DNA of 64,000 bases from a phage. Shown piece by piece: positions 7,864-56,327 of this stretch. Below the pieces are notes generated by a model. That model did no database searches, was not told the origin of the DNA, and worked only from the letters and a program-made list of their open reading frames with translations. The stretch's first letter is position 1. Each line of letters starts with the position of its first letter. The stretch lies in the NCBI GenBank assembly GCA_025677605.1, contig GCA_025677605.1_4110.1. The stretch is one strand, 5' to 3'. The position numbers and the translations under genes are program-made.

Positions 7864-10605
7864 TTAACTCCAACGAGTACCAGATTGTGATGGTAACCCA
7901 GAACTAGCTGGGATAGCAGAACCACGATTGTAGGTACTTGGGCGGTATAGCAAGAATCTGGACACTTTTTCAGACTCGATTGATGCAATACCATTAGCAT
8001 CAGTTACTATCTTACCAATGTAGGTTGATGTCATAGTTTCTGATAATTGATATAGTGATATCTGATACGAAGCTGTAGATGTACCTCTATCCATAACCGC
8101 ATATATGTAGAATGTTGAATTATCTGGTGTAGTACTTATGGTAGATAAGTCTATCATAGTCGGTGGTATCTTTGCAAACTTTCCACCCAAGAAAACTGGT
8201 ACTTCTTGTGAAAAGTACACGTTGAACCCTTGTGCCACATCCTGTGAAGCAACAACTAAGTACTGTGATATCGTTTCATTACCAGATATTAGTTTATCCA
8301 TATCTGCTTCAGTAGTACCACATACAGCAAAAACTGATTTAGTTTGATAATCGTTTTTGTTCATTTGGTAATATCCAAACCCAATCCCTGGAATTGTACC
8401 TATATCAAATTGTGCGTTTGAAATATAAGTTGTTTCCATATATCGTTGACTTGAAATAATACCATTTTTCACTTTAGCAATCATGTTAGGATAACGAGTC
8501 CAACCTGGGGTATCAATGCCATATAAAATGTTCACACCTAAGTAGTTAAAACCACTAAACTTAGCAACAGTCATACCAGCCCAACGTTTGATCATTTCAT
8601 TTGGTGAAATTTGGAATGTATTCGTGATTGATGTATATCTTGCTGTATCAACACTAATACCACGTAAAATTATAGTACCACTTGTACCCAGTGCACTACA
8701 TGATATTTCGGAAAAAATAATATAACACACGTTGGTAGTACCGTTTAGTGCAGAAGTGACTGCAATAGATTTAGAATATGTAGTATCAGGTACATAATAA
8801 AAAACAGTTTTATGTTCAGTTATTCCAGTCAATCCGGCTTTAGCAACGGCATTATAACCTATACCTGATAATGTAGTTCCTGAAATTTCATATCTATCAC
8901 TGTTAAAGTCCATTGTAACAGGGTCGAATTTTCCATAAGCTGGTTTATCGATACCTTCTATTAAAGAAGATCCATAAGTGCTGACATTTCCATTGGCATC
9001 AACCAATGTTACCATACCTGCATATTTGTAATCAGTACTTAAATAGTGTCTATTACCTGATGGTGCAAAACCATTCATTGTGGTATTTTGTTCCAAGTTT
9101 TTATAACTATAAGTTGGATTCTCACCTATTTCAGTAAAAACTGTACTATCATAACCATAAGAAATTCCATCAGCAGTACCAGAACATGCAACAAGTATCT
9201 TACGTTTATCTACGAAACGAACACCTATTAAGTTTTCACCGACAGGGGAGCCATAAACTGGCATTACTTCTACACGTTTTAAATTACTACCAGTACGTGT
9301 TTTAGCAACCCAACTATCATAAGGTGTACCAGAAACTTTGTATGTTTGTACTGCATAGGTCGGCATGGATGACCATCTTGCTTTGGTAGTGAAAACAAAA
9401 CCATCAGAAGTTTGACAGATTGAACCATAGTTACCAAGTGCACCATCATAAAACCCTGTAAAGTTTTCCATATTGATTGAAAACGGGTTACTCACTGTTA
9501 TACTACCAGTTGATGTATTAGCTGATACTCTGATTGGACCACGTTCAGAACCGTCAAGTGTCATTGTTTTAGTACTGATATCATATGTAAAGCTGATACC
9601 AAGTGCATATACACCAGATGTTTTTGTTGCGGTAAAGACACGAAACCCTGGATATATCGCTACTCTTATTTTTGTACCATCAGGACTGATAACTGCTTGT
9701 GTATTAAATGCGTTATTTTCCCAATAATCTATTCTGGAAACACCATTATCATATGCTATTAGTGCATCACCACCTGAACCCAACACTGAATAACTATCAT
9801 AAACACGAATATTATTAGATGCAGTGTATGTTACATTTCTTATAGTTCTTCCTGAATAACCACTAATCTGTGTTACTGTCGAAACTGAACCAGTATTAAA
9901 TGCAGTTAAAGGTACTGTGTATATGATAAATGCACACCCGCGAACACTACTCAATACACTTGAATCCATACACCATATATAAACTGAATCATTTACGATG
10001 TGTGCATAGATTGGTTTATTTGTTATTGCTGTTTTTGGAATTCTGCAATGTTTGTGTGCTGATTCATTTAATGTTTCATTTGTTAATGTAAGGTAGTATG
10101 ATGCTCTATCAGTTGATTCCCAAAATAGTAATTCATATGCATTTGACCCATAAAATTCATAAATGTAATCAGTGCTTGGTAGCACAGAAGGTCTATACAT
10201 CGTGTTGGTTGTAATTATATTATCTTGAGTTAGTGTTTCTATATCTCTTATATTTTTAATATAAGCATAATAGTAACCATACGAACTTCCATTTGTACCT
10301 GCACGTAAAATTACACCAGTACCATCATTTTCAATGATACAAGGTTGCATTATTTTTGCAAATGAAAAGGAAGAAGCACCTTCAAATGTACCGTTAATAC
10401 TCATCGGTAGGTAATCTTGATCACCTACCCTTGAAACTGGAAGCATATCAAACATCTGATCTACTTCCGCTTTGTCATAATATTGGTAAGTGATTTTACC
10501 AGCAGAATCAGCAGGGAATCCATTAAAGGAACGTAATGCATACTTTCCATTAATTTTCAAATTCCCTAGTATTTCTGCGTTTCCTATAATTCGTCTCGAA
10601 GCCAT
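7864..10605 (-). CDS. tail fibre protein
   Basis: ~913 aa, Gly/Ser/Thr/Asn/Tyr-rich; C-terminal ~120 aa shared with the two upstream fibre ORFs; ATG at 10605 with AAGGA RBS (track start 10632 is upstream alternative). Confidence 0.7.
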   Translation of the reverse strand: MASRRIIGNAEILGNLKINGKYALRSFNGFPADSAGKITYQYYDKAEVDQMFDMLPVSRVGDQDYLPMSINGTFEGASSFSFAKIMQPCIIENDGTGVILRAGTNGSSYGYYYAYIKNIRDIETLTQDNIITTNTMYRPSVLPSTDYIYEFYGSNAYELLFWESTDRASYYLTLTNETLNESAHKHCRIPKTAITNKPIYAHIVNDSVYIWCMDSSVLSSVRGCAFIIYTVPLTAFNTGSVSTVTQISGYSGRTIRNVTYTASNNIRVYDSYSVLGSGGDALIAYDNGVSRIDYWENNAFNTQAVISPDGTKIRVAIYPGFRVFTATKTSGVYALGISFTYDISTKTMTLDGSERGPIRVSANTSTGSITVSNPFSINMENFTGFYDGALGNYGSICQTSDGFVFTTKARWSSMPTYAVQTYKVSGTPYDSWVAKTRTGSNLKRVEVMPVYGSPVGENLIGVRFVDKRKILVACSGTADGISYGYDSTVFTEIGENPTYSYKNLEQNTTMNGFAPSGNRHYLSTDYKYAGMVTLVDANGNVSTYGSSLIEGIDKPAYGKFDPVTMDFNSDRYEISGTTLSGIGYNAVAKAGLTGITEHKTVFYYVPDTTYSKSIAVTSALNGTTNVCYIIFSEISCSALGTSGTIILRGISVDTARYTSITNTFQISPNEMIKRWAGMTVAKFSGFNYLGVNILYGIDTPGWTRYPNMIAKVKNGIISSQRYMETTYISNAQFDIGTIPGIGFGYYQMNKNDYQTKSVFAVCGTTEADMDKLISGNETISQYLVVASQDVAQGFNVYFSQEVPVFLGGKFAKIPPTMIDLSTISTTPDNSTFYIYAVMDRGTSTASYQISLYQLSETMTSTYIGKIVTDANGIASIESEKVSRFLLYRPSTYNRGSAIPASSGLPSQSGTRWS

Positions 10606-10615
10606 ATATATTCCT

Positions 10616-11206
10616 TTACCATTCTGTCCCACTATTCACATCTGGTGTACCAGAACTGATAGGGATAGCTGAACCAATTTTTGTAGCACTTACTCTGAAG
10701 TCGTCAAATCTTGACACTTTATTTATACTGACCCCTGTAATGCCATCTGGGAAAACTGTCAGTTGTCCTATGTACATATTAACACTACTTTCAGGGCGTT
10801 GAGTTTTAGAAATGAGGTAGTCAGCTACCCCAACATCTAATATAACATATACATAATGTGTTTCAATATTAGTACCAGTAACTCCTGGGTCCGTTATTGT
10901 TTTAGCAGGGAGGGTATAAACCGCTCCCGCCATGAACAATGGTAATTCTTTACTGAAAGTCAATTTGAATCCAGCGGCAGTAATACCTAATGGTTCATTA
11001 CTGTAAAGTGAACCAAATTGTGATAACGGAAAGGAACTGGTAATGTAATTCACATCATCTGTACTCATGAGTGGTACATCAACATTCCCATTAGCATCAG
11101 CTTGATACACATTACCAGAACGATCAGTTATCGTGGTCCCAGTATTTTTTCCTTGTGATTTAACGGAAGCATACGCTTCCACATCAGATCTAAATTTATA
11201 AGCCAT
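10616..11206 (-). CDS. small tail-fibre-related protein
   Basis: 196 aa; C-terminus (...KVSRFDDFRVSATKIGSAIPISSGTPDVNSGTEW) is homologous to the C-termini of the flanking large fibre proteins. Confidence 0.6.
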   Translation of the reverse strand: MAYKFRSDVEAYASVKSQGKNTGTTITDRSGNVYQADANGNVDVPLMSTDDVNYITSSFPLSQFGSLYSNEPLGITAAGFKLTFSKELPLFMAGAVYTLPAKTITDPGVTGTNIETHYVYVILDVGVADYLISKTQRPESSVNMYIGQLTVFPDGITGVSINKVSRFDDFRVSATKIGSAIPISSGTPDVNSGTEW

Positions 11207-11216
11207 ATTATCTCCA

Positions 11217-13901
11217 TTACCAATTCACATTACCAGAACTTGAAGGGAACCCAGAACTAACTGGGAAGGAACTTCCGGCAGCGTCGAATGATGAACCAAA
11301 CAGGTCTAAACGCGAACGTTTTGCTATATTAATTTCGGTTATTTGTAAATTATCAGTTTTCACTGTACCAATCCAGAATATTGAATGAGTTTCAGCTAAT
11401 TCAGTTGTTGATATATGATAGTTTGCAATACCCTGTACTAATTTAATATACACATAAAATGTAGTATTGGCAGGATTTGCTTTCACAGTTGTTAAATCTA
11501 TATTTGATATTGGTAATGTATAGTGTTTACCGGATATCAGTACTGGTGTCTCTTCGGTGAAGTATATAATAAAACCTTGAGCAACATCTTGGGAAACAAG
11601 ACATATAAATGGATTTCCTTTATCAGTCCATGCATTATAATCCGCTAATGTTGTACCATATGTTCTAAAAATTGTTTTGTTATTATTATCTATACTTTGA
11701 AGAATACCAAACCCAATGTTAGGTAAAGCGAATGGTTGACCATCTAATGCATAGATCGGACGTGCACCAGCTATATGGAAATTATTAAATTGGGCTGTCG
11801 CTTTATCCACTGTAGCACGGAAAAATGGAGAGTTTGTATTACCAACTGTATTAAAGAAACCAGGAATACCACCACCAATGAAGTAGAAAGAACCCGCATC
11901 ATATATAGTAATACCAATACTTCCACTATCAAGATGATATGCGGTATCTGTTTTGTAATCCCCAGCTTGAACACTTTCATGTACTAAACGTTTGAACGAC
12001 CATGTTGTAATATCACCAGTTCTTGTATTGACATTCAATTCAACAACTCGAATATATAGACCACGGGCTGTAGTAGATGCTGCAAGAACACCAAAAACAG
12101 GAATATCAGTTTGTTGTGGAACAAATACAGATAATGTTTTTATTGATGCTGGTGATATATTCCATGAACTAGCAACTTTAGCAAATTCGGAATTTCTAAT
12201 GGAATTCATTATATCTTGTGACATACTGATTGTACCATTATTCAGTACATTACCTTTATAATCAAAACTAATTGGCGTTGATGTTCTATTATCAGCCACC
12301 AAAACACCACCATTAGTCGTTACCGTTGAACCAGAAATTGAACTTATAAAAATTCTAGATTCTGGTGTAGTTATAAACGCTCGGTCTGGTGTTGGTTCAT
12401 AGCCAAGAACATTACCATAGTCTAGAGACTTAAATGTAAAGTTCGGGGTAGCTTTATGTACAGCATAGGATGGATAAAAACGACCATCACCTGAACGTCT
12501 TGAATATTGCTTAGTACTGTTATTTGGTAATAACTCCACACCCACTTGGAATGAACCAACTGCTGAACCAAATCTTGGTGATACGACACCATTAATAAAA
12601 TCAGTTGCCGATACACTTCTAACATCCATTAAATCAAATAATGATTTGGGTGGGTATTTTGCATATGATATATTCAATGCTTCTGCAAGGTTTGGTGAAA
12701 ATGAGCAAAACGCATCCCCAGTTGATGGAACATAGCAATAATTACTGAAAATGTTACGTCCACCTGCGTGAAGATAAAACGGGTCAGTTGTTAAACATGG
12801 ACCAGATTCATTCATGCTTGTACCATTATCATAAACAGCAACTGGTGTAGTAGTTGTCATATTATCCAATGCACATTGCTTAGTAGCAATATCAAAAGTC
12901 ATACTAAAACTGTGTTGTGGTCGTATATCATATCTGCCGTTAGTCATCCACATATCGCCACATAATCTAAATTTAAATGTAGTTGTACCTGATTTCTGTG
13001 CAACATATAAATCTGGATCTGTCATATAAATACCAAACCCAATAATACCACTTGGAATTAAAACGTATGGATTATCATTGGTATTTGTTGAATTTATTTT
13101 CATAGTTGGAACAATATTGTCATCATATACCATTGCATTATAAAAAGTTCTTGTGGCCCAACCAGTAATTCTAGTAACACTATAAGTACCACCACCTGGG
13201 TTATTACTTGGACTAAAAGTAACTTTAACCACTGATATTTTAAGAGTATTGCTTGGTGTATCTAAACTGAAAAAGTATAATGCACCATCTTCTGCACGAA
13301 TAACAAATTGTACTTCACCAATTGGCCTAACTGAAGCATAGTCATCAATTAAAATTCCGGTATGCATTGCATCGTTCATTGTGCCATTATTAACGGATAC
13401 AAAAAGTTTATTAATTGAACCATTACTTGCCATACCACATGTAATATCATCACTACATGAATATAAATGGTATGCATAATAATCACCAAAATAATTTGGT
13501 TTATATGCACGAGTAGTATTAACCATACGACTTGTATTTGTTGTACCAACCGCCTGGGTCATATAACTATAATAAACCCCTTGTGTACTCCCATTTGTAC
13601 CAGGACGTAGCATTACTAAAGTGTTATCATCTTCCAAAAATAATTTTGTATTTCTGGATTTAGTATTTTCTGAAGAACCAACTGTTGTACCATTGACACC
13701 AGCAGGTAGATAGTTTTGTGTACCATAACGAGAAATGGGTAACATACCAACCATTTCCAGCATATCATCTTGTGTATATGCATCTATTGTGAGATTGCCA
13801 TTTTCATCAAATACGTTATCATTGATGCTCTGAACACTTCTCTTACCTTTGACTGTTACATTATGTGTAACATCAATGCCACCATATATTTTCTTTGCCA
13901 T
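11217..13901 (-). CDS. tail fibre protein
   Basis: 894 aa; fibre-like composition; C-terminal module QDVAQGF..YF..E.PV...GK...P......T homologous to the 913-aa fibre; ATG 13901 with AAGGGA RBS. Confidence 0.7.
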   Translation of the reverse strand: MAKKIYGGIDVTHNVTVKGKRSVQSINDNVFDENGNLTIDAYTQDDMLEMVGMLPISRYGTQNYLPAGVNGTTVGSSENTKSRNTKLFLEDDNTLVMLRPGTNGSTQGVYYSYMTQAVGTTNTSRMVNTTRAYKPNYFGDYYAYHLYSCSDDITCGMASNGSINKLFVSVNNGTMNDAMHTGILIDDYASVRPIGEVQFVIRAEDGALYFFSLDTPSNTLKISVVKVTFSPSNNPGGGTYSVTRITGWATRTFYNAMVYDDNIVPTMKINSTNTNDNPYVLIPSGIIGFGIYMTDPDLYVAQKSGTTTFKFRLCGDMWMTNGRYDIRPQHSFSMTFDIATKQCALDNMTTTTPVAVYDNGTSMNESGPCLTTDPFYLHAGGRNIFSNYCYVPSTGDAFCSFSPNLAEALNISYAKYPPKSLFDLMDVRSVSATDFINGVVSPRFGSAVGSFQVGVELLPNNSTKQYSRRSGDGRFYPSYAVHKATPNFTFKSLDYGNVLGYEPTPDRAFITTPESRIFISSISGSTVTTNGGVLVADNRTSTPISFDYKGNVLNNGTISMSQDIMNSIRNSEFAKVASSWNISPASIKTLSVFVPQQTDIPVFGVLAASTTARGLYIRVVELNVNTRTGDITTWSFKRLVHESVQAGDYKTDTAYHLDSGSIGITIYDAGSFYFIGGGIPGFFNTVGNTNSPFFRATVDKATAQFNNFHIAGARPIYALDGQPFALPNIGFGILQSIDNNNKTIFRTYGTTLADYNAWTDKGNPFICLVSQDVAQGFIIYFTEETPVLISGKHYTLPISNIDLTTVKANPANTTFYVYIKLVQGIANYHISTTELAETHSIFWIGTVKTDNLQITEINIAKRSRLDLFGSSFDAAGSSFPVSSGFPSSSGNVNW

Positions 13902-14137: not shown

Positions 14138-14603
14138 AATCTACTCCTTTACGAAGAATACGTTGATTATTAGAGCCTCTAAATGGTAATTCTAAATTCT
14201 TTTCTTCAAGAATAAATTTACCATCAACTAATACATCAATGTACTCTAGTATTGCGGAGGCATGATTATTTATTATTTCCTCTAAAGTATAACCACTCCA
14301 GCACCAAATATCTTTATTTGGATATTTTTCTTTTACTACTTTACATAACTCAATAACAGTACTGATATTCTTTGGCATCAATGGATCACCACCTAAAAGG
14401 GATAATCCTTGTACATATGGCTTGTTAAGTTCATTCAGGATGATTTCAACTGTTTCAGTACTGAATACTTCCCCACTGCGATAATCCCATGCTTTTTCGT
14501 TGAAGCATTCTTCACATCCGTGGCTACACCCTGAAACAAAAAGGGAGCATCTAACTCCCTCCCCATTAACTAAATCATCCTTGATTATCGTTTGGTAATT
14601 CAT
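14124..14603 (-). CDS. nrdG: anaerobic ribonucleotide reductase activating protein (radical SAM)
   Basis: 159 aa with CSHGCEEC (C-x3-C-x2-C) iron-sulfur motif; adjacent to nrdD. Confidence 0.85.
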   Translation of the reverse strand: MNYQTIIKDDLVNGEGVRCSLFVSGCSHGCEECFNEKAWDYRSGEVFSTETVEIILNELNKPYVQGLSLLGGDPLMPKNISTVIELCKVVKEKYPNKDIWCWSGYTLEEIINNHASAILEYIDVLVDGKFILEEKNLELPFRGSNNQRILRKGVDYALS

Positions 14604-14910
14604 CTAATATTGCACTCACTATTTCCACAAGAACATCACCATGACATGATTTTGGCTTACAAAAGCACCCAAGACGCTTCCCAGCCAATTCAAGTAGTTC
14701 TTCGATAGTAACCTCACCATTTTCAATTCTTTGGATAAGATACTCTCTGAACTTCTCAATCGACTCTTCTCGTGTCGGAACTATAAACTCTGCCTTTGTT
14801 TGTTTGTCATTAATGTGGGTAAATGGATTTCCCCATTTGGACCCACGACCAATATACACATCATATGGTTCTTTATATTTGTTAACTACAATTGGTTTTA
14901 AGTCCATCAT
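14575..14910 (-). CDS. conserved hypothetical protein (GNPF motif)
   Basis: 111 aa, [12 protein letters not shown] motif, Cys pair [11 protein letters not shown]; family assignment not verified. Confidence 0.45.
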
Positions 14911-15278: not shown

Positions 15279-17084
15279 TTACATGTGTTGTATACGTTGA
15301 ATAACTTCAGCTTGTTTACCTTTATTGAACGGGCGACTATTTGGTGCACTAAGATATCCTGATACTCTGCGAATAACCGACATTGTACGTTCATTGCGGT
15401 TGTCACATACCGGACAATGGAAACCATTTTTATCTACACTAAATTCACCCTCAAAATCACATTCAAAACACTTATCGACCTTCTGATTAATACCAAAATA
15501 TGGAATTTTAGTATAAGCAAAATTTATTAATGTTTCAAGTGCTTGTATATTATTAGCTAGATTTGGTGTTTCGACATAGCTAATATTACCACCATTGCTT
15601 AGATAAGCAAAGTTTTCCTCATAATCCCATTTAGCAAAAGGTGTACTTTCAACCCATACTGGTTGATGGAATGAGTTAGTGATAAAGTCACGTTTCAGTA
15701 CTGAAGGATGTTTTGCCTCAATACAACGTGCAAATTTATAACATAGTGATTCTGCTGGTGTACCGTAAAGACTAAATGCAATGTTACTCTCTTTTTTGAA
15801 TTCATCACATTTTGCTTTCATGTAGTTCAAAATACTCATACAGAACTCTTTACTAATTGAACCAGTGAGGATCTCTGAGCACTCAGATAACCCAACATAA
15901 CCAATACTGATACTAGCATAACCATTATAAAATAAATGGTCAATAGTGTCTTCAGGATCAAGACGTGCAATCGCACCTTCAGCGAAAAGTATAGGGTTTT
16001 GTTTTGCCTTTGTACCTTTTAAACGTTCTACACGGTTCATCTGTGCTCTGTAAGCAATATTCATGTGCTCGTCAATCTTATCAAAGAAATCACCATCAGA
16101 CTCACTCTCAAGAGCAATTAGTGGTAAGTTGATAGACACAACGCCAAGGTTGAATCTACCATTGTATTTTTCTTCTCCTTGTATATTTTCCCATTTCCCT
16201 AAGAAACTTCTGCATCCCATAGGAGTAACAGGAATAGTTGTGCTTCCAGTAACTTTTTGATTCAAAGGTACTGATACAAAATCAGGATAGATGCGTTTAG
16301 CTGCACAACGCATAGCTAATTGTTTTAAGTCATAATTACAATCAGTACTGTTCATATTAATTCCATCCTGAAGAAAGAATATTACTTTAGGGAATACTGG
16401 AGTAATCTTATCTTTACCTAGTCCATTTTCATGTACTTTCAAATATTGTTCAGTGATTAGTTTTTCAAATTTAGATGTACCTAATCCTAAACTCAAAGAA
16501 ATGAACGCAGCCTGACCATTAGTACTGATCATTGAGTTTGTTTGATATAGAATTGTTTGACAACCGTCATAAACTTCCTTACGCAACTCATCTTCGATGA
16601 ATTCAGTACTAAGATTGTATTTCTTTTGTTTTTCTAGAAGTTTATCCCATGACTTTTGTACATATGGTGCAAGGCCAGTGTCAATGTGAGCCAACGACTG
16701 ACCACCGTACTGTGAACTTGCCACAGCCTGAACAATCTGTGTTAGTACTGTACAAGCTACCCCAAAGCTTTTTGGTTCTTCAATCTTGGCACAACCAATC
16801 ATGAAGCCATTAGCAAGCATATCAGGATAATTAACTAAACAACAGTTTGTTAATGGGCTAATGTAATAGTCTAAATCATGAATATGACCGTAACCTTCAT
16901 TATGCCACTTCATCAATTCATCAGGAATCACATCTTGGGAATAATGTTTAGAAAGAATACCTGCCAATAAATCACGATGTGTATTAACACATTTAGCGTC
17001 TTTATTTGCATTTTCGTTTGTTAAATCAGCGTTACTCTGGTTGAGGAAGTTAGTTACGTCCGTATATAATTTATCTATTTGCAT
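15279..17084 (-). CDS. nrdD: anaerobic ribonucleoside-triphosphate reductase
   Basis: 601 aa; C-terminal Zn-ribbon cysteines (CFECDF...CPVCDN) and glycyl-radical motif RRVSGYL; co-located with nrdG. Confidence 0.9.
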   Translation of the reverse strand: MQIDKLYTDVTNFLNQSNADLTNENANKDAKCVNTHRDLLAGILSKHYSQDVIPDELMKWHNEGYGHIHDLDYYISPLTNCCLVNYPDMLANGFMIGCAKIEEPKSFGVACTVLTQIVQAVASSQYGGQSLAHIDTGLAPYVQKSWDKLLEKQKKYNLSTEFIEDELRKEVYDGCQTILYQTNSMISTNGQAAFISLSLGLGTSKFEKLITEQYLKVHENGLGKDKITPVFPKVIFFLQDGINMNSTDCNYDLKQLAMRCAAKRIYPDFVSVPLNQKVTGSTTIPVTPMGCRSFLGKWENIQGEEKYNGRFNLGVVSINLPLIALESESDGDFFDKIDEHMNIAYRAQMNRVERLKGTKAKQNPILFAEGAIARLDPEDTIDHLFYNGYASISIGYVGLSECSEILTGSISKEFCMSILNYMKAKCDEFKKESNIAFSLYGTPAESLCYKFARCIEAKHPSVLKRDFITNSFHQPVWVESTPFAKWDYEENFAYLSNGGNISYVETPNLANNIQALETLINFAYTKIPYFGINQKVDKCFECDFEGEFSVDKNGFHCPVCDNRNERTMSVIRRVSGYLSAPNSRPFNKGKQAEVIQRIQHM

Positions 17085-21566: not shown

Positions 21567-22313
21567 TCATACATCCTCCTTGGGGTATAATTTTCTAAAT
21601 TCAGTCATCAGTTTGTTACGAATCGGTTTCGCATAATCAATAACAGCTTGTGCTTTTACATGATAATCACCATATGTTTCATCATATATCTTATAGATGT
21701 TGTCGCGAATGTTCAGCATTTCAAGCACATCAAACTCTTGTTTCATTGACGCAATATTCATTTCATGTTCAGTATTGGATCTGTACAGATTGTAATAATG
21801 CGTAATGATATAGATGAAGTGAATGCTATGCCAGATGTTCTTCAGTCCTAACATCTTATCGTAATCTTCCAGTACTGTCAACTTCTTTTTTCCTTTATTA
21901 AAGGCTTTATCTGATGCAGTACTGCAAATTTTACGAATCTCACTGTTACGGCGTGTCATCATAACCGAACCGATATGACCAAGGTACATCAAAAGATGAT
22001 TTGCACATTTCGGTACAATAGTACCAAAACCGATGGTATAGTATTTAACATCACCACGCATTAATTCGACACGAAGATGATTGAGAGTCATACATTCAAT
22101 ATTGACAGGTATATCAATACAATCTAATTTTACAGAGAACTCACCTTCTTCAAACTCTTCTGGTACTATATTAATAACATCAATATCATTTGGTAATTTG
22201 TCATCATACTTATACAAACAAAAAGTATTCCACGAACCATAGATAAATGGGCATTTATAACCAATTTTGATTAGTTCGGTGATGATTGCTTCGGTTTGTT
22301 TTTCAAGATCCAT
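21567..22313 (-). CDS. hypothetical protein, possible minimal nucleotidyltransferase
   Basis: 248 aa; IYGSWNTFCLYKYDDKLPNDIDV loosely fits GS...DxD; weak. Confidence 0.45.
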   Translation of the reverse strand: MDLEKQTEAIITELIKIGYKCPFIYGSWNTFCLYKYDDKLPNDIDVINIVPEEFEEGEFSVKLDCIDIPVNIECMTLNHLRVELMRGDVKYYTIGFGTIVPKCANHLLMYLGHIGSVMMTRRNSEIRKICSTASDKAFNKGKKKLTVLEDYDKMLGLKNIWHSIHFIYIITHYYNLYRSNTEHEMNIASMKQEFDVLEMLNIRDNIYKIYDETYGDYHVKAQAVIDYAKPIRNKLMTEFRKLYPKEDV

Positions 22314-22646: not shown

Positions 22647-22714
22647 GATTTACTTCCTTCTTCGATAATGGTGTGTTCATTATAGCAATGAACACATTTA
22701 ATGTCAATAATAGA

Positions 22715-24154
22715 TTACATATTTTCTTCTGCAAACTCTGCAAGTGCAGAACGTACAACACCTTCCAATTCAATGATACGACACCCTTCCCAATCTTTGA
22801 ATTTTTCAGTTACATATGTCAAACCACTATTAACTGGACTAATAAACTTACTATCAATCTGTGCTAAGTTACCCATAATGATAACCTTACAGTTTTGACC
22901 TGCACGGGTAAGAATAGTTTTTGCCTGTGCAGGGGTGATGTTCTGGAATTCATCAACAATTAGAATTGTATTAGTAAAAGAACGACCACGAATAAAGTTC
23001 AATGCTTTAAACTGCATTACGTTACGTTTGAGAATCTCTTCAATGCTACCTTGTGGGTTAGCATCATCTTTGTGTAGATACTCTAGAGCATCGATTGCAG
23101 CCCCACAGAATGGGATGACCTTTTCAGCTTCAGAACCGGGTAAGAAACCAATTTCTTCAAATTGTGAATCTTGTGTTTTGGAGAAGATGATACGATCGTA
23201 TTTACGCTTCTCTAGTACTAATTCGAGTGAAGTAGCAACAGTAATCAATGTTTTACCAGTACCTGCTGAACCAAGTAGTACTGTCAAATGTACATCAGGG
23301 TCAAGAATACTGTTAATTGCTAGTGCCTGTTGAATATTCTTTGCTTTAATATCCCAAACTTTAGCACGAAGAGCGATACTTTGACCAATATCCTGGAATA
23401 CCAAAATATCTTCAGGTGTTAGTGAACCGTCTTCTTCTTCGATAGCAGATTGACCTTCGTATACGAATAGTACATCAGCATTATCATATAGATAATCACC
23501 AATACATAGATTATCTGGAAGAACATCTTGAATCAATGCGGTTGGAATATAGTGATATAGACGGCGACCTTCTTGTTGGGATTTAATTTCAGCATTGTTA
23601 ACTTCACTGAATGTTTTCCAGAAATCAATATCAAGGTGGTGCTGCCCAATATGAATCAACTCACTATCTTCGATTGCAACGTCATGACGGTAATCTTGTA
23701 CCTCAACACCGTAGCTCATTGCTTTGATACGCATGTTAATGTCGCGAGTTACCAGTACTGATTGTGATGCCAAAGCCACTAGAATGATTTTGTCATCTGG
23801 TACAGTACTTTTAAGTAGAGTTTCTACTTTATCTTCACTGCCGCCCATACGAATAAGTGCTTCAGCTTCTTCATTCGTCATAACGAATAGCTTACTGGAT
23901 GCATCCATATTTTTGTGGATATTGGCAATATTAACACCAGTACTGCTGATTTCTTCATGAGTAGCATCTTTCAAAATTGCATCGATGTTACGGATTGCGA
24001 AACGTGCATCACGTGATACGTCAACATTACGGCTCTTGATTGAATCAAGTTCTTCAAGAACAGTGAATGGTAGAATCACTGCTGCCCCATCAAATGCTAC
24101 GGTTGCATTTGGATCGGATAGTAGTACGTTTGTGTCAATTGTGTATTTTTTCAT
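22715..24154 (-). CDS. phoH: PhoH-family ATPase with N-terminal PIN domain (YlaK-like)
   Basis: Walker A GSAGTGKT; N-terminal PIN-like region; likely ATG at 24154 (MKKYTIDTN) with AGGA RBS. Confidence 0.75.
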   Translation of the reverse strand: MKKYTIDTNVLLSDPNATVAFDGAAVILPFTVLEELDSIKSRNVDVSRDARFAIRNIDAILKDATHEEISSTGVNIANIHKNMDASSKLFVMTNEEAEALIRMGGSEDKVETLLKSTVPDDKIILVALASQSVLVTRDINMRIKAMSYGVEVQDYRHDVAIEDSELIHIGQHHLDIDFWKTFSEVNNAEIKSQQEGRRLYHYIPTALIQDVLPDNLCIGDYLYDNADVLFVYEGQSAIEEEDGSLTPEDILVFQDIGQSIALRAKVWDIKAKNIQQALAINSILDPDVHLTVLLGSAGTGKTLITVATSLELVLEKRKYDRIIFSKTQDSQFEEIGFLPGSEAEKVIPFCGAAIDALEYLHKDDANPQGSIEEILKRNVMQFKALNFIRGRSFTNTILIVDEFQNITPAQAKTILTRAGQNCKVIIMGNLAQIDSKFISPVNSGLTYVTEKFKDWEGCRIIELEGVVRSALAEFAEENM

Positions 24155-24218
24155 AAAACATCCTTGAGTTATGAGCACATCCTTGTGCTCTACGGTAGAT
24201 TATAGACTCAGACACTTC

Positions 24219-24518
24219 TTATTGTGGCTCATAGTCAACGTAGCAGCGGTGACCGCGAGCCTTTTCTGTCCAGCATTCATTGTAAACAATTTGCCCAACT
24301 GAAACTGGTTTCCTTGATGCTCCATACTTAATAGACCCATCTTCAGTCTTATAAGTAAATGAACATGTATTTTCTTCACACTGCCCTATGTCAGTAACAA
24401 CAGCAGTACGGTAGTATATATCTCTGTGTTTGGTTTGATCTTGATGATAAAAGAACCAAAACCCAATAAGAAATATAATACTTGTGATTATAAAGCTTTG
24501 TATATGATGTTTTGTCAA
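24219..24518 (-). CDS. small membrane-anchored protein
   Basis: 99 aa with N-terminal hydrophobic segment IITSIIFLIGFWFFY and Cys-containing extracytoplasmic part. Confidence 0.5.
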   Translation of the reverse strand: MTKHHIQSFIITSIIFLIGFWFFYHQDQTKHRDIYYRTAVVTDIGQCEENTCSFTYKTEDGSIKYGASRKPVSVGQIVYNECWTEKARGHRCYVDYEPQ

Positions 24519-24847
24519 TTGTCCCCTCTCAAAAATCTAAAACCATTCTGTAAGTACGTGTCAATGTTGACCTTCCCTACAGGATTACTGCTATGGATGA
24601 TATAATCGAATTCAGTACTGATATTGTTTTCGACCATATAATCAATTAGAAATTTTGCAAATGAATACCCTGTCTTTTCATCCTCCCCAACATCACCTAA
24701 GTCATGATCGAAGCTAATAAATTGTGGTAAACCATGTTCATTTACATAAGCACATGCACTTTCATAATCACGACATAAAACCATGTTTTGATTTGGATAA
24801 TACTTTTCAGGATCACGAATATCATCCAGAAACATTGAGTAAGACAT
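24515..24847 (-). CDS. hypothetical protein
   Basis: 110 aa ORF, 4-nt overlap with downstream gene. Confidence 0.5.
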   Translation of the reverse strand: MSYSMFLDDIRDPEKYYPNQNMVLCRDYESACAYVNEHGLPQFISFDHDLGDVGEDEKTGYSFAKFLIDYMVENNISTEFDYIIHSSNPVGKVNIDTYLQNGFRFLRGDN

Positions 24848-24858
24848 TATAATTCACC

Positions 24859-25407
24859 TTATAAGTAACTAATCAGTAAATTCTCGGATTGAACAAGATG
24901 TTCTAATTCCATTTTAGCAGTTCCTATGAAGTTTTGTGTCATAAGATTATTATATCCTGCTTCTCGGTTTTGTCCCTTTGAATAACGAGAAATGTGACAT
25001 AAATTAACACCAGCCACTTCTGCACTTGCATGTTTAGCAGTACTGTATCCATCGCGAATCGCTTTCAATTCTTCGTAAGTAACTTCATAACTATAGCTAT
25101 GGGTATGTGCTCCTAGATATAGTTCGTAAGTTTTCAATGGTTTCAATTGTTCGATGAAAATATTATAATTCATCTCTTCCTGAATTTCACGGAATAGTGC
25201 ATCTTCTAAGGTGGCATCGGTATCTTCGACTGTTCCACCACAACCACCCAGTAAACCATCCCAACGAAGCTGGAGTAATACCAGATTCACAACAGGGATA
25301 TCATTTAATTCATAACCTTTATATGGGTTACAATTTCGAGCAAAGAAGTAACAGAATACAAAGTTTGCTCGTTTACCATACTCACCTAGAGGTACTTCTC
25401 GAATCAT
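24859..25407 (-). CDS. Nudix-like hydrolase (divergent Nudix box)
   Basis: GGCGGTVEDTDATLEDALFREIQEEMN resembles Nudix box G-x5-E-x7-REUxEExGU with a short insertion. Confidence 0.5.
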   Translation of the reverse strand: MIREVPLGEYGKRANFVFCYFFARNCNPYKGYELNDIPVVNLVLLQLRWDGLLGGCGGTVEDTDATLEDALFREIQEEMNYNIFIEQLKPLKTYELYLGAHTHSYSYEVTYEELKAIRDGYSTAKHASAEVAGVNLCHISRYSKGQNREAGYNNLMTQNFIGTAKMELEHLVQSENLLISYL

Positions 25408-26156
25408 TTCATTCTATCCTTAATGATAGTTTCCAGTACTGGAATCGCTTTTGTAGCTGGTTTTATAATTTTTTCATTGAACATGAAATCGTTATCATTT
25501 TTTCTGATGTTGATATTAATACTAAAGCATGGCAAACAAGCAACCAGATGTGACCATTTCAGTACTGTGTCACTGCTACCAATGACTACAACTGTATCAT
25601 CTTCTGTTAAGGATTGCAATACTAAATTACGCTCATCGTATATTGGGAGTTTTTCACCATCAACATAACGATAATATTCACCAATGAACACTACGTTTGG
25701 TTTCGCAAAGACACCTTCTTTCGGAATGTACGGTTCATAACCACAATCCACAATACTATAATCGTCACCACCAATTGTAAAATTCTCAATAACTTCTTTT
25801 AAATTACCATGTAACTTTAATTCATTGCCACCAATACGAGTATAGAGATCATCCATATTCGAAGTCATATGTAAAAAGTTATCACCGTATGTATCTTCTA
25901 GAGATTTGATATAATAATGCATATCATTAGGAACACAATCTTTCATTTTAACACGTAATGTGTTATAGAAAGTATGCACTAAATGGTACTTAGTACTAAG
26001 ACGTGCAATGTTACATACATCATTTATTTGAAATTGATCCCATAGGCCATCGTCCATGCGAAACGGTTCCATCCCACTTTCAACGGATAGACCTGCACCG
26101 GAAATAACCAATACACGTTTATTACCTTTATTTTTTATAAAAGAGTCAGAAATCAT
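25404..26156 (-). CDS. Sir2-family (sirtuin-like) NAD-dependent enzyme, no zinc-ribbon module
   Basis: GAGLSVESGMEPFR matches sirtuin NAD-binding motif GAG(I/L)S.ESGIP.FR; LHG catalytic-His motif; 4-nt stop/start overlap with Nudix gene. Confidence 0.75.
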   Translation of the reverse strand: MISDSFIKNKGNKRVLVISGAGLSVESGMEPFRMDDGLWDQFQINDVCNIARLSTKYHLVHTFYNTLRVKMKDCVPNDMHYYIKSLEDTYGDNFLHMTSNMDDLYTRIGGNELKLHGNLKEVIENFTIGGDDYSIVDCGYEPYIPKEGVFAKPNVVFIGEYYRYVDGEKLPIYDERNLVLQSLTEDDTVVVIGSSDTVLKWSHLVACLPCFSININIRKNDNDFMFNEKIIKPATKAIPVLETIIKDRMK

Positions 26157-26365
26157 AGCTTACCTACTGTACCTAATGAACTCAAATCGTATACAAATAA
26201 GATACACACAACCGAGATGACAATGTGATATATCATCCATCCATTGAATTTCTCTTTGTTTTTGATAATTTTATATATACATTTAATATTATTGTACGCT
26301 ACAACTGCTAGAAATACAACAACAAAATAAACAAAGCATAGTGAAAAGTAATTGATAGTTATCAT
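26153..26365 (-). CDS. small membrane protein (two predicted TM helices)
   Basis: 70 aa, two hydrophobic stretches. Confidence 0.45.
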   Translation of the reverse strand: MITINYFSLCFVYFVVVFLAVVAYNNIKCIYKIIKNKEKFNGWMIYHIVISVVCILFVYDLSSLGTVGKL

Positions 26366-26397
26366 AGTTATAATACTCTCCTTATTAAATTAATATA

Positions 26398-26422
26398 GGG
26401 GATTATAAGAATCCCCTTTTTT
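26398..26422. terminator. hairpin with T-run
   Basis: 7-bp stem ggggatt/aatcccc with loop ataag followed by T6 on the plus strand; A/T-rich on the other side. Confidence 0.35.
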
Positions 26423-26425
26423 GTA

Positions 26426-27028
26426 TTACAGCTTAGGATAGCTTAGTAAATCATACTCAGCACTAACGCTGGTAACATTATCACTTACAATTTTGAAGAT
26501 AGAATCGGTGCGATCAACCATCTTAACACCTGTTTCTTTTTGAACTTCAATATATGCTTGCATAGCTGCAATTGCATGATATGTACCACTACCAACAGAT
26601 GTAATTTGTGTCTTAGGTTGGAGTACTGAAAAATCCTCTTGAACTTCATAAATTGTATGATTATGAAGAATAATAAACTGTCCACCACCAACGTCTTGAG
26701 TTGTATCACGAGCACCCCATTCTTCTTTAAATAGTGTGCGAATACGTGGGATTACCTCAAGTACTAAGTACTGTGAGAATGTTTGGTTTGATTGCTGTTC
26801 AGGTAAATCAAGTTTATACGTCAGCAATTGTCCCATGCGGAAGCTCGACGTGTATCCCATTGCCATAACTTCTTTGGTGCGATTCAATCCACTTTCATCG
26901 ATTTTGATGAATTCTTTTTCAAACACTTTTGGTTCAGTTTGAATTGCTTTAGTGAAACCATTACTACCCAGTTTGTCACCCGCGATAAAAGATGTGTTAC
27001 CATCAGTGTAAGCAATAATACAAGTCAT
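26426..27028 (-). CDS. HslV/proteasome-beta-like Ntn-hydrolase
   Basis: N-terminus MTCIIAYTDGNTSFIAGD aligns with HslV TTIVSVRRNGHVVIAGD (Thr1 nucleophile); later SVGSGTYHAIAAMQA resembles the GSG...A motif. Confidence 0.6.
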   Translation of the reverse strand: MTCIIAYTDGNTSFIAGDKLGSNGFTKAIQTEPKVFEKEFIKIDESGLNRTKEVMAMGYTSSFRMGQLLTYKLDLPEQQSNQTFSQYLVLEVIPRIRTLFKEEWGARDTTQDVGGGQFIILHNHTIYEVQEDFSVLQPKTQITSVGSGTYHAIAAMQAYIEVQKETGVKMVDRTDSIFKIVSDNVTSVSAEYDLLSYPKL

Positions 27029-27039
27029 TGATATCTCCG

Positions 27040-27430: not shown

Positions 27431-28036
27431 TTATTGAATGATTCCCCATTTAACGAGATCTGATCTTCGTAATACAACGATATCCTCACCATGTTTAGTA
27501 CTGATATCAATGAGTGTTTCAGCGGGGATACCGTTATGTGCGTACAGTGTAAAAAGATACCCAACTTTAGTTGAGACTTGATGTGTAAACTCCATCAACT
27601 GTCTAACTGAAACGAATGTCGTATCTGGATCTGCACCATTCGTAGATACTAGTGAGATGTTATGTAAACCCATCACTGCGGTATCACTCATATCCCTACG
27701 TTCAGATGATGCAGAGAAAAAAACCAGACTACAAGACGAATTACATTGCTTTGGGACATAAACAGTTAACTTTTTAGCAGCCACAAAAAATCCCAAATCT
27801 AATCCTGCATCAAAATCTCCACCAGGTGATGTTATTGTTATAATTTTAAATCTTGTTTCTTTCCACAACTTCTTCACTTCTTGTACAGTTTCATCATTTA
27901 GTTCACCATCAATTGACACAACATGTTCATTTAATAGAAAAACAGATGATTTTTTTGAAACTTCTGCCGCTGCCGGAAAGTTTAATGCAGCGATTAAAAC
28001 AACGGTTTGTACAATCTCTTTCAAGATTCGTTTCAT
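27431..28036 (-). CDS. secreted ClpP/S49-like serine-protease-fold protein
   Basis: N-terminal signal peptide ending AAAEV; ITSPGGDFDAGLDL resembles the ClpP INSPGG..AGLAIYD motif. Confidence 0.45.
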   Translation of the reverse strand: MKRILKEIVQTVVLIAALNFPAAAEVSKKSSVFLLNEHVVSIDGELNDETVQEVKKLWKETRFKIITITSPGGDFDAGLDLGFFVAAKKLTVYVPKQCNSSCSLVFFSASSERRDMSDTAVMGLHNISLVSTNGADPDTTFVSVRQLMEFTHQVSTKVGYLFTLYAHNGIPAETLIDISTKHGEDIVVLRRSDLVKWGIIQ

Positions 28037-56311: not shown

Positions 56312-56327
56312 AATACTTTCTCCATTA

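What the first reader, a model, noticed from the sequence alone, without database searches (positions are those of the whole stretch)
24859..26156. Translationally coupled Nudix-Sir2 pair (NAD-related module) in a phage
A Sir2-family protein with a clear NAD-binding motif (GAGLSVESGMEPFR, LHG) but no zinc-ribbon cysteines overlaps by 4 nt a divergent Nudix hydrolase. Zinc-less Sir2 domains in prokaryotes are typically NADases or ADP-ribosyltransferases (as in Thoeris ThsA, DSR, SIR2-HerA). A phage-borne copy next to a Nudix enzyme, with an NMNAT-like nucleotidyltransferase elsewhere (55254-55793), suggests manipulation of NAD or ADP-ribose pools: counter-defence against NAD-depleting immunity, exclusion of competing phages, or ADP-ribosylation of host targets.
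Basis: partly seen in the sequence, partly recalled or inferred. Interest (0 to 1): 0.7.

Follow-up and report, generated by a model that had tools for sequence, protein, structure and literature searches.

The report
Phage sirtuin–Nudix–cREC NAD operon
A giant E. coli phage carries a zinc-less, CobB-like sirtuin followed by two enzymes that would dismantle its ADP-ribose by-product; this gene set was described by comparative genomics in 2022 as a probable NAD-dependent RNA-repair system, and nobody has tested it at the bench.

Summary
On the minus strand a 250-aa Sir2 (25404..26156) overlaps a 182-aa Nudix (24859..25407) by ATGA. The catalytic residues are intact and the zinc-ribbon cysteines are absent.

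The chain runs small TM protein, Sir2, NUDT16-like Nudix, cREC phosphoesterase, membrane protein, PIN-PhoH (26365..22715). The window is an Asteriusvirus jumbo phage, 98.7% identical to Escherichia phage A4.

The sirtuin is closest in sequence and fold to E. coli CobB. It matches no defence-system model, so the ThsA/DSR analogy is not supported. The "NMNAT-like" ORF is a generic HIGH-superfamily nucleotidyltransferase whose nearest fold is PPAT. Phage A4 has no Nampt.

Iyer et al. 2022 already described this neighbourhood (sirtuin, Nudix, cREC, PIN) as a predicted Tpt1-like RNA-repair system. My data reproduce it:
- Nudix and cREC are fused in related phages.
- RNA ligase, cREC and Sir2 are contiguous in other lineages.
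- T5 pairs Sir2 with an RNA-repair HAD phosphatase.

One observation is absent from the two papers I checked. In relatives the module abuts Nampt, NadM and an Acb1-like 2H enzyme, which keeps a counter-defence reading alive.

Verdict: real, conserved, already described, biochemically untested.

The parts
26153..26365 (-). Small 70-aa predicted membrane protein, the first gene of the chain. It overlaps the Sir2 start by 4 nt.
   Evidence: ORF. No PHROG family and no Pfam family above cut-off. Annotated as a CDS in phage A4. Found only in A4 and 121Q; relatives carry an Acb1-like 2H and/or a Zn-binding gene at this position.
25404..26156 (-). Zinc-less, CobB-derived (class III-like) sirtuin, 250 aa.
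   Evidence: Pfam SIR2 1.9e-19, phrog_2162 2.9e-72, no PADLOC hit. CobB 1S5P E 2.9e-21. G20, G22, S24, N100, D102 and H116 are invariant in 61 homologues; F32 and R33 are kept in 60 of 61. No Zn cysteines. AF2 pLDDT 93.8, best fold match CobB with TM 0.78/0.86. dN/dS 0.09.
24859..25407 (-). NUDT16/X29-type Nudix hydrolase, 182 aa.
   Evidence: Pfam Nudt16-like 5.5e-19, phrog_9999 4.3e-84. Full-length match to human NUDT16 at E 3e-13 with REIQEE intact. Not related to T4 NudE. Fused to cREC in Eneladusvirus-type phages. dN/dS 0.05.
24515..24847 (-). cREC (cyclic-phosphate-processing receiver-like) predicted phosphoesterase, 110 aa.
   Evidence: Pfam cREC_REC 1.8e-22. The FLDDIRD, FDHDLG and HSSNP motifs are conserved across standalone and fused copies. 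No match to any solved structure. dN/dS 0.07.
24219..24518 (-). Conserved 99-aa membrane protein (phrog_14661). It overlaps the cREC stop by 4 nt.
   Evidence: PHROG 1.3e-32. Present between Sir2/Nudix/cREC and PIN-PhoH in 18 jumbo-phage loci, including those that lack Nudix and cREC.
22715..24178 (-). PIN-PhoH (PhoH2-type) predicted RNase/ATPase, the last gene of the chain. Phage A4 annotates a 479-aa product starting at about 24154.
   Evidence: Pfam PIN_4 1.2e-21 and PhoH 1e-43. The PIN acidic residues are visible in the translation. Linked to Sir2 in all jumbo loci.
26361..26417 (-). Terminator-like hairpin (26417..26397) and a weak sigma-70-like promoter (26388..26361) upstream of the chain.
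   Evidence: Consensus scan. Suggestive only: the promoter count in the region is not above the shuffles.
22679..22707 (-). Perfect sigma-70-type promoter (12/12 with a TG extension) just after the PIN-PhoH stop. It marks the start of the next unit.
45422..46354 (-). T4-type polynucleotide kinase/phosphatase. Not contiguous with the chain; a possible RNA-repair partner.
   Evidence: Pfam HAD_PNKP 5.1e-42 and AAA_33 1e-13.
47428..48573 (-). T4 Rnl1-like tRNA ligase. Not contiguous with the chain; a possible RNA-repair partner.
   Evidence: Pfam RNA_lig_T4_1 1.8e-15 and T4_Rnl1_C 7.2e-15.

Best explanation
The pair is the core of a six-gene early-type chain: TM protein, Sir2, Nudix, cREC, membrane protein, PIN-PhoH.

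Shown: the sirtuin is an intact NAD-binding enzyme of CobB ancestry. It belongs to a phage-specific clade that has lost the zinc-binding cysteines.

Inferred mechanism:
1. The sirtuin uses NAD+ to transfer ADP-ribose onto a phosphate on damaged RNA, most likely a 2'-phosphate left at or next to a repaired break.
2. Its conserved His then activates the ribose 2''-OH. This releases the RNA with a free 2'-OH together with nicotinamide and ADP-ribose 1'',2''-cyclic phosphate. The chemistry matches that of Tpt1/KptA.
3. cREC opens the cyclic phosphate.
4. The NUDT16-like Nudix cuts the ADP-ribose pyrophosphate to AMP plus a phosphoribose. It may also strip ADP-ribose from stalled RNA ends.

Nudix and cREC are accessory clean-up or salvage enzymes rather than obligate partners.
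For: Intact, selected enzymes:
- Catalytic residues are invariant or nearly so across 61 homologues.
- dN/dS is 0.05-0.09 for Sir2, Nudix and cREC.
- The cREC aspartates are conserved.

Functional linkage of Nudix and cREC:
- They are adjacent here and fused into one roughly 300-aa protein, in the same order, in ten related loci.

RNA-repair context recurs in independent lineages carrying the same zinc-less sirtuin clade:
- L056: Rnl1-like ligase, cREC and Sir2 are contiguous, with a kinase and a phosphoesterase beside them.
- rV5-like L046: ligase, cREC, kinase, Sir2.
- T5 and L039: Sir2 with a 'Swiss-army-knife' RNA-repair HAD phosphatase; in L039 Sir2 sits inside a tRNA array.
- The kinase-plus-cyclic-phosphodiesterase layout without a phosphatase resembles the fungal/plant tRNA-ligase pathway, which leaves a 2'-phosphate and so needs a Tpt1-like step (established knowledge of Trl1/Tpt1).

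Other support:
- Human NUDT16 removes ADP-ribose from RNA phosphate ends made by TRPT1 and PARP10 (PMC6582358).
- L002 and L003 keep Sir2, the membrane protein and PIN-PhoH but lack Nudix and cREC. Those two are therefore dispensable accessories.
- The window also encodes PNKP and Rnl1.
- Iyer et al. 2022 reached the same prediction (PMC9503650).
Against: - There is no biochemical evidence for any phage sirtuin or any cREC.
- The sirtuin looks like a protein deacylase: CobB is its best sequence and fold match, and the acyl-lysine-tunnel motif VVFxGE is kept.
- The whole clade is acidic (median pI 5.1), which is unusual for a stand-alone RNA-binding enzyme.
- In this phage the RNA ligase and PNKP are 20 kb away. 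They form a T4-type pair, which should not leave a 2'-phosphate.
- PIN nucleases are metal-dependent and do not make cyclic phosphates (established knowledge).
- Phage early genes for nucleic-acid metabolism cluster anyway, which weakens inference from gene neighbourhood.
- The '2H' enzyme counted as an RNA-repair component in relatives matches the anti-CBASS Acb1 family better. The module also abuts NAD-salvage genes there. Both facts fit a counter-defence reading.
Confidence: 0.45

Rival explanations
1. Host-takeover protein deacylase or protein ADP-ribosyltransferase. The phage sirtuin keeps CobB's activity on (acyl-)lysines of host or phage proteins. Nudix, with cREC, simply destroys the O-acyl-ADP-ribose or ADP-ribose it produces.
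For: CobB is the best sequence match (E 3e-21) and the best fold match (TM 0.78/0.86). The class III signature Y64 and the FGE tunnel motif are conserved. The family is acidic like CobB. Public records annotate it as a 'NAD-dependent deacylase'. Nudix enzymes are known to hydrolyse O-acetyl-ADP-ribose (established knowledge).
Against: All NCBIfam CobB equivalog scores fall far below cut-off (91.8 against 318). The zinc module that shapes the peptide cleft has lost its cysteines across the clade. The succinyl-binding Arg is Leu in this subgroup. This reading does not explain a cyclic-phosphate esterase fused to the Nudix, nor the repeated ligase, cREC, Sir2 adjacency.
Confidence: 0.25
2. Counter-defence module. 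Nudix and cREC degrade NAD-derived or cyclic-nucleotide immune signals or toxic ADP-ribose metabolites, and the locus is part of an anti-defence island.
For: In related jumbo phages the module directly follows NadM, Nampt (NARP2, shown to counter NAD depletion: bioRxiv 10.1101/2024.02.11.579819) and a 2H enzyme matching Pfam Acb1 at 56 bits against a cut-off of 27. Nampt or NadM lies within 8 kb of Sir2 in 28 of 84 loci spanning several lineages. Iyer et al. argue that phage Nudix, Macro and NADAR enzymes mostly target soluble ADPr signals.
Against: A sirtuin consumes NAD rather than restoring it. This phage and 121Q lack Nampt, NadM and Acb1 altogether yet keep the module under selection. No known anti-defence protein resembles these three. 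The library search found no report of a Nudix or cREC cleaving gcADPR or CBASS signals.
Confidence: 0.15
3. NADase used by the phage for host shut-off or exclusion of competing phages, in the manner of ThsA, DSR or SIR2-HerA.
For: The zinc ribbon is absent. The canonical TQN motif is T[T/A/S]N in the clade, reminiscent of the TTNYD motif of defence SIR2 domains (recalled from memory, not tested).
Against: No PADLOC hit. No SIR2_2-type Pfam hit. No defence Sir2 among the top 50 fold matches. No sensor or partner domain. F32, which in sirtuins disfavours simple hydrolysis, is kept in 60 of 61 homologues. NAD depletion would also starve the phage, which has no NAD salvage.
Confidence: 0.07
4. Adjacent but functionally unrelated early genes. 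The overlap reflects only the compact gene packing of this genome.
For: At least 16 junctions in the window have the same 4-nt overlap. Nudix is linked to Sir2 only in the Rak2/Asterius/Eneladus superclade, and its distant homologues in Aeromonas phages are not near a Sir2.
Against: The gene order Sir2, Nudix, cREC, membrane protein, PIN-PhoH is kept between phages whose Sir2 proteins are only about 40% identical. The Nudix::cREC fusion and the independent cREC-Sir2 adjacency in other lineages also argue for a link.
Confidence: 0.08

Closest known systems
Sirtuin-centred predicted NAD-dependent RNA-repair neighbourhood of jumbo phages (Iyer, Burroughs, Anantharaman, Aravind 2022, Viruses 14:1977, section 3.7.3; prototype Serratia phage BF)
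   Same: The same sirtuin clade and the same neighbours: Nudix, cREC, a membrane protein and PIN-PhoH in the same order. Here Nudix and cREC are separate genes, which that paper treats as the usual state; it reports the fusion as occurring only sometimes.
   Different: The window has no 2H gene and no adjacent Nampt or NadM. I find that the Nudix is NUDT16/X29-type, that the relatives' 2H matches Acb1, and that the module abuts NARP2 there. The paper's text mentions neither Acb1 nor a sirtuin-NadV link, and the passages I read do not classify this Nudix as NUDT16-type.
E. coli CobB and class III sirtuins (SIRT5)
   Same: Best sequence and fold match. The NAD-binding GAGxS, FR loop, N/D and catalytic His-Gly motifs are kept, as are the FGE motif and the Tyr of the YxxR motif.
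   Different: No zinc-binding cysteines. TQN is TSN. The Arg of YxxR is Leu here. Scores lie far below the NCBIfam CobB cut-offs. The genomic context is RNA and ADP-ribose processing rather than acyl-CoA metabolism.
Tpt1/KptA RNA 2'-phosphotransferase with Cpd1/Poa1-type Appr>p processing
   Same: The proposed chemistry is the same: NAD-dependent removal of an RNA phosphate, yielding nicotinamide and ADP-ribose 1'',2''-cyclic phosphate, followed by a cyclic phosphodiesterase step. The neighbourhoods with ligase and kinase mirror the fungal/plant tRNA-ligase pathway.
   Different: The fold is unrelated (a sirtuin Rossmann fold rather than an ART fold). The by-product would be processed by cREC and Nudix instead of 2H and Macro. 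The analogy is inferred and not tested.
Human NUDT16 / Xenopus X29
   Same: Full-length homology (E 3e-13), a conserved Nudix helix and a conserved C-terminal FIG(S/T)A motif. NUDT16 cleaves the ADP-ribose pyrophosphate on proteins and on RNA ends.
   Different: Roughly 25-30% identity by my estimate from the printed alignment. It is a phage protein, and its substrate is unknown.
Defence SIR2 NADases (ThsA, DSR1/2, SIR2-HerA) and phage NARP2
   Same: All lie in the NAD/ADP-ribose conflict network. NARP2 genes are neighbours of the module in relatives.
   Different: There is no profile or fold similarity to defence SIR2, and no partner domains. This phage has no Nampt or NMNAT.

Membership tests
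Sirtuin (SIR2, PF02146) | Profile match above the curated cut-off | tested here: met
   70.8 bits against a cut-off of 24, covering profile positions 1-178 of 180.
Sirtuin (SIR2, PF02146) | NAD-binding GAGxS, FR loop, Asn/Asp of TQNxD, catalytic His-Gly | tested here: met
   G20, G22, S24, N100, D102, H116 and G117 are invariant in 61 homologues. A21, F32 and R33 are kept in 60 of 61. The Gln of TQN is Ser here and T/A/S across the clade.
Sirtuin (SIR2, PF02146) | Zinc-ribbon CxxC...CxxC in the small domain | tested here: not met
   Absent here and throughout the jumbo, T5-like and rV5-like clade. Other phage Sir2 proteins retain it. The beta-strands of the module persist in the AF2 model.
Sirtuin (SIR2, PF02146) | NAD-dependent deacylase or ADP-ribosyl transfer activity | not testable with these tools
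   No experimental report on a phage sirtuin was found.
CobB / class III sirtuin | Closest sequence and structure relatives | tested here: met
   1S5P and 6RXJ at E 2-3e-21. Foldseek E 9e-19, TM 0.78/0.86.
CobB / class III sirtuin | NCBIfam equivalog score | tested here: not met
   Best score 91.8 bits against a cut-off of 318.
CobB / class III sirtuin | Y-x-x-R acyl-carboxylate motif | tested here: inconclusive
   Y64 is invariant. Position 67 is Arg in 52 of 61 homologues but Leu in the window's subgroup. R68 is kept.
Defence-type SIR2 NADase (ThsA, DSR, SIR2-HerA) | Match to defence-system profiles | tested here: not met
   No PADLOC hit at E<=0.01.
Defence-type SIR2 NADase (ThsA, DSR, SIR2-HerA) | Fused or adjacent sensor/partner (SLOG, HerA, long C-terminal domain) and fold similarity | tested here: not met
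   A stand-alone 250-aa protein whose neighbours are Nudix and a small TM protein. No defence Sir2 among the top 50 PDB fold matches.
NUDT16/X29-type Nudix (PF22327) | Profile match above cut-off and full-length homology to NUDT16 | tested here: met
   69.1 bits against 27. Human NUDT16 at E 3e-13 over residues 28-178.
NUDT16/X29-type Nudix (PF22327) | Catalytic Nudix helix REx2EE | tested here: met
   REIQEE aligns with RELREE of NUDT16.
T4 NudE-type phage Nudix | Sequence similarity to T4 NudE | tested here: not met
   BLASTP E 3.7. T4 NudE does not match PF22327. Phage A4 has a separate NudE-like gene elsewhere.
cREC (PF20274) | Profile match and conserved receiver-like aspartates | tested here: met
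   80.3 bits against 27. The LDDxRD and FD(H/N)DLG motifs are conserved.
Iyer et al. 2022 sirtuin RNA-repair neighbourhood, type 1 | Distinct-clade sirtuin linked to Nudix, cREC and a PIN protein | tested here: met
   The same order is seen in the prototype Serratia phage BF.
Iyer et al. 2022 sirtuin RNA-repair neighbourhood, type 1 | Linked 2H phosphoesterase | tested here: not met
   No homologue of the BF 2H gene in the window or in phage A4. In relatives it matches Pfam Acb1.
Tpt1/KptA-like RNA 2'-phosphotransferase (functional analogue) | NAD-dependent removal of an RNA 2'-phosphate yielding Appr>p | not testable with these tools
   Inferred from context only.
NARP2 NAD reconstitution (Nampt + NMNAT) | Nampt/NadV gene present | tested here: not met
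   None in the window. None in phage A4 with three divergent Nampt queries. No Asteriusvirus among the top 60 Nampt-bearing phages.
NARP2 NAD reconstitution (Nampt + NMNAT) | NMNAT identity of ORF 55254..55793 | tested here: not met
   The HxGH motif is the only feature. No Pfam hit. No PDB sequence hit. The fold is nearest PPAT. Only E 0.003 over 55 residues to the phage BF NadM.

The most novel reading that the evidence does not exclude
The zinc-less phage sirtuin would be the first sirtuin that works on nucleic acid: a Tpt1-like RNA 2'-phosphotransferase or RNA-phosphate ADP-ribosyltransferase. cREC and the NUDT16-like Nudix would convert its product ADP-ribose 1'',2''-cyclic phosphate to AMP plus ribose-1,5-bisphosphate. 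In relatives that carry Nampt and NadM next door, that product and the released nicotinamide could be fed back into NAD (via PRPP), closing an NAD cycle around RNA repair.
Probability: 0.3. Interest if true: 0.8.

Novelty: already known. Interest (0 to 1): 0.35.

Why it matters
If the published prediction is right, sirtuins gain a new class of substrate in RNA. Phages would then possess a second, convergent solution to the 2'-phosphate problem of RNA repair, and cREC would be its first assigned enzyme partner.

The alternative is that the module belongs with the neighbouring NARP2 and Acb1-like genes of related phages. It would then be an uncharacterised anti-defence activity.

Either outcome is testable with three small soluble proteins. 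For this scan, however, the finding is a correct re-discovery of a neighbourhood that comparative genomics described in 2022.

Tried and rejected
- PADLOC scans of Sir2, Nudix, cREC, the membrane proteins, PIN-PhoH and the BF 2H gene gave nothing relevant.
- tRNA scans found none in the window. Only 3 of 30 related loci have tRNA arrays near Sir2.
- I looked for a 2H gene near PIN-PhoH by reading the ORFs and found none.
- I tested whether the Nudix belongs to the characterised T4 NudE clade. It does not.
- The cREC sequence and the 248-aa orphan gave no hits against the PDB.
- For the NMNAT hypothesis on 55254..55793 I ran Pfam, PHROG, PDB sequence, PDB profile, AF2 with Foldseek, and BLASTP against a genuine phage NadM. 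Only superfamily-level similarity emerged.
- I fetched the rest of phage A4 in seven pieces and combined them with the window to look for Nampt, NadM, Acb1 and extra copies. All searches were negative.
- Literature searches found no experimental work on phage sirtuins, cREC or Nudix-type anti-Thoeris enzymes.
- Isoelectric points served as a crude test of RNA binding. The family is acidic, which is weak evidence against direct RNA binding.
- The promoter and terminator scan is only suggestive.
- I did not use the large representative-protein search or the third fold search. Neither would have changed the verdict.
Full report
**What is there.** The window is a piece of an Asteriusvirus jumbo phage. 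The region 24200-27100 is 98.7% identical to Escherichia phage A4. On the minus strand a 250-aa ORF (25404..26156) and a 182-aa ORF (24859..25407) share the tetranucleotide ATGA. The first is a Sir2-family protein: Pfam SIR2 at 70.8 bits against a cut-off of 24, and phrog_2162 at 2.9e-72. The second is a Nudix hydrolase of the NUDT16/X29 type: Pfam Nudt16-like at 69.1 bits against 27, and phrog_9999 at 4.3e-84.

The overlap carries little weight on its own. At least 16 gene junctions in this window have the same 4-nt overlap, including those on either side of the pair.

**The unit is larger than the finding.** Immediately downstream lies a cREC ('cyclic-phosphate processing receiver') protein at 24515..24847 (Pfam 1.8e-22). 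It is followed by a conserved 99-aa membrane protein (phrog_14661) and a PIN-PhoH protein at 22715..24178 (PIN_4 1.2e-21, PhoH 1e-43). A 70-aa membrane protein precedes Sir2. A hairpin and a weak promoter lie upstream of that first gene. A perfect sigma-70 promoter follows the PIN-PhoH stop, so a six-gene unit spanning 26365..22715 is plausible but not proven.

**The sirtuin.** Its N-terminal half aligns with E. coli CobB at E 3e-21, roughly 45% identical by my reading of the printed alignment. Sixty-one homologues keep the catalytic residues: G20, G22, S24, N100, D102 and H116 are invariant, and A21, F32 and R33 are kept in 60 of 61. The AlphaFold model is confident (pLDDT 93.8, pTM 0.91). 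It superposes best on CobB (TM 0.78/0.86), then on archaeal Sir2 and SIRT5. No defence-type Sir2 appears among the top 50 matches, and no PADLOC model matches.

The zinc-ribbon cysteines are missing, although the beta-strands of that module remain. This is a clade trait shared with the sirtuins of T5-like and rV5-like phages, whereas other phage sirtuins keep CxxC...CxxC. Clade-specific changes include TQN to T[T/A/S]N. In the window's subgroup the class III Arg of the YxxR motif is also replaced by Leu. All NCBIfam CobB equivalog scores lie far below their cut-offs. The protein is of CobB ancestry but is not an ordinary CobB, and it is not a ThsA/DSR-like NADase by any test I could run.

**The Nudix and cREC.** The Nudix aligns over its full length with human NUDT16 and Xenopus X29 (E 3e-13 to 1e-10) and has an intact REIQEE helix. 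It is unrelated to the characterised T4 NudE (BLASTP E 3.7), which also fails to match the Nudt16-like profile. Among sequenced phages it occurs in 88 records. These are the Rak2/Asterius/Eneladus jumbo superclade, plus distant copies in Aeromonas phages that are not near a sirtuin.

cREC keeps its receiver-like aspartates. It has no solved relative and no experimental literature. Sir2, Nudix and cREC are all under strong purifying selection, with dN/dS of 0.05-0.09 against 121Q.

**Context elsewhere.** I fetched eighty viral loci encoding relatives of the sirtuin and searched them with profiles built from the window's proteins. The results fall into groups:
- Close jumbo relatives have the same order: Sir2, Nudix, cREC, membrane protein, PIN-PhoH.
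- Ten loci of Eneladusvirus-type phages, whose Sir2 is about 40% identical, have Nudix and cREC fused in that order into one roughly 300-aa protein. Pfam confirms this.
- One lineage (L002, L003) has Sir2, the membrane protein and PIN-PhoH without Nudix or cREC.
- In rV5-like phages the row is Rnl1-like RNA ligase, cREC, P-loop kinase, Sir2.
- In L056 ligase, cREC and Sir2 are contiguous.
- In T5, Sir2 is followed by a 'Swiss-army-knife' RNA-repair HAD phosphatase.
- In L039, Sir2 sits inside a tRNA array with the same phosphatase nearby.

The window itself encodes a T4-type PNKP (45422..46354) and an Rnl1-like ligase (47428..48573), about 20 kb away.

**Prior description.** This neighbourhood is in the literature. 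[quoted passage not shown] Their proposal is that the sirtuin acts like KptA/Tpt1 on RNA 2'-phosphates while the neighbours process ADPr>P. My context analysis reproduces their description independently. I found no experimental test of it.

**Additions to that description.**
1. The Nudix is NUDT16-type, and human NUDT16 removes ADP-ribose from RNA phosphate ends made by TRPT1 and PARP10 (PMC6582358). The passages of the 2022 paper that I read do not make this classification.
2. In Serratia phage BF and the other non-Asterius relatives, the module is directly preceded by NadM (NMNAT plus Nudix), Nampt and a 2H protein. That 2H protein matches Pfam Acb1, the anti-CBASS family, at 56 bits against a cut-off of 27.
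3. Nampt or NadM lies within 8 kb of a phage sirtuin in 28 of 84 loci from several lineages.

The 2022 paper's text mentions neither Acb1 nor a sirtuin-NadV link, and the NARP paper does not mention phage sirtuins.

The ORF at 55254..55793 has an HxGH motif and PHROG 'cytidyltransferase' hits. It has no Pfam hit and no PDB sequence hit, even with a profile. Its top 50 fold matches are all PPAT (E 5e-5, TM about 0.55), and it shows only E 0.003 similarity to a real phage NadM. It is a HIGH-superfamily nucleotidyltransferase of unknown substrate, placed beside a Dam methylase and an HNH nuclease. Calling it NMNAT-like is not justified.

Nothing turns up in the window. A local tblastn of phage A4 (seven fetched pieces plus the window itself) also finds nothing, using three divergent Nampt queries, two NadM queries and the Acb1-like query. 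This phage keeps the Sir2, Nudix, cREC module without any NAD salvage of its own.

**Mechanism.** I commit to the RNA-end model at 0.45. The sirtuin would transfer ADP-ribose from NAD+ to an RNA phosphate. Its catalytic His would then activate the 2''-OH, releasing the RNA together with nicotinamide and ADP-ribose 1'',2''-cyclic phosphate. cREC would open the cyclic phosphate, and the Nudix would split the pyrophosphate.

What is shown:
- All three enzymes are intact and under selection.
- Nudix and cREC are fused in relatives.
- The association with RNA ligase, kinase and phosphatase recurs across lineages.
- Nudix and cREC are dispensable accessories.

Everything about substrates is inferred.

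Evidence against the model:
- The enzyme looks like CobB.
- The family is acidic, with a median pI of 5.1.
- This phage's own repair pair is T4-type and should not leave a 2'-phosphate.
- PIN nucleases do not make cyclic phosphates.
- Phage early genes cluster by timing as well as by pathway.

The rivals are a CobB-like protein deacylase or ADP-ribosyltransferase with by-product disposal (0.25), a counter-defence role tied to the NARP2 and Acb1 neighbours of relatives (0.15), a ThsA-like NADase (0.07), and mere adjacency (0.08).

**Verdict.** The feature is real, conserved and correctly spotted, but it was only partly delimited and partly misinterpreted. The neighbourhood is already described in the comparative-genomics literature, and its biochemistry is untested. 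Interest is 0.35 and novelty is 'already known'. The most novel reading still open is a nucleic-acid-directed sirtuin with an NAD-recycling clean-up arm, at a probability of about 0.3.

Noticed in passing
window 14575..14910 (-): A DUF4326 protein (Pfam 5.4e-25) sits between the anaerobic ribonucleotide reductase NrdD (15279..17084) and its activase-like gene. Iyer et al. 2022 predict that this domain processes terminal phosphates of ADP-ribose derivatives, so it is a second NAD/ADPr-network gene in the window.
   Followed up: partly
window 45422..46354 and 47428..48573 (-): A T4-type polynucleotide kinase/phosphatase and an Rnl1-like tRNA ligase, the classic phage tRNA-repair pair, lie about 20 kb from the sirtuin.
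   Followed up: partly
window 21567..22313 (-): A 248-aa orphan just downstream of the PIN-PhoH unit carries a 'GS...DIDV' motif reminiscent of minimal nucleotidyltransferases. It has no Pfam, PHROG, PDB or PADLOC hit and is absent from the related phage fEgEco12.
   Followed up: partly
L089 (Serratia phage BF) 1759..5900; L007-L020 upstream of Sir2: In related jumbo phages NadM, Nampt (NARP2) and a 2H protein matching Pfam Acb1 (anti-CBASS, 56 bits) sit directly upstream of the sirtuin. Asteriusvirus phages (this window, A4, 121Q) lack the whole block.
   Followed up: yes
L051 6051..8699; L054 4964..8735: Zinc-containing phage sirtuins of a different clade lie directly after Nampt, or after NadM and Nampt. 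Sirtuin-Nampt adjacency therefore recurs outside the zinc-less clade.
   Followed up: partly
window 55254..56942 (-): The HIGH-superfamily nucleotidyltransferase (fold nearest PPAT) is translationally coupled to a Dam-family N6-adenine methyltransferase (55790..56311), with an HNH endonuclease next door. Its substrate is unknown.
   Followed up: partly
window 26426..27028 and 27431..28036 (-): An HslV-like peptidase (phrog_1040) and a protease that phage A4 annotates as a ClpP/crotonase-like domain protein (phrog_26024) lie just upstream of the sirtuin chain.
   Followed up: no
window 22679..22707 (-): A perfect sigma-70 consensus promoter (TTGACA, 17 nt, TATAAT, with a TG extension) lies immediately after the PIN-PhoH stop.
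   Followed up: no
phage A4 outside the window (L091 13687..16618; L092 2632..3096): A cluster of a CCA-adding/2',3'-cyclic phosphodiesterase protein, a T4 NudE-like Nudix (43% identity to T4 NudE by tblastn) and a macro-domain protein, plus a further Nudix near the tail-sheath genes. These are more ADPr- and RNA-end-processing enzymes in the same genome.
   Followed up: partly
L039 6532..14556: In this 86-kb viral contig the zinc-less sirtuin (7998..8705) sits inside an array of 11 tRNA genes, with a HAD_SAK_2 RNA-repair phosphatase at 11072..11599.
   Followed up: partly
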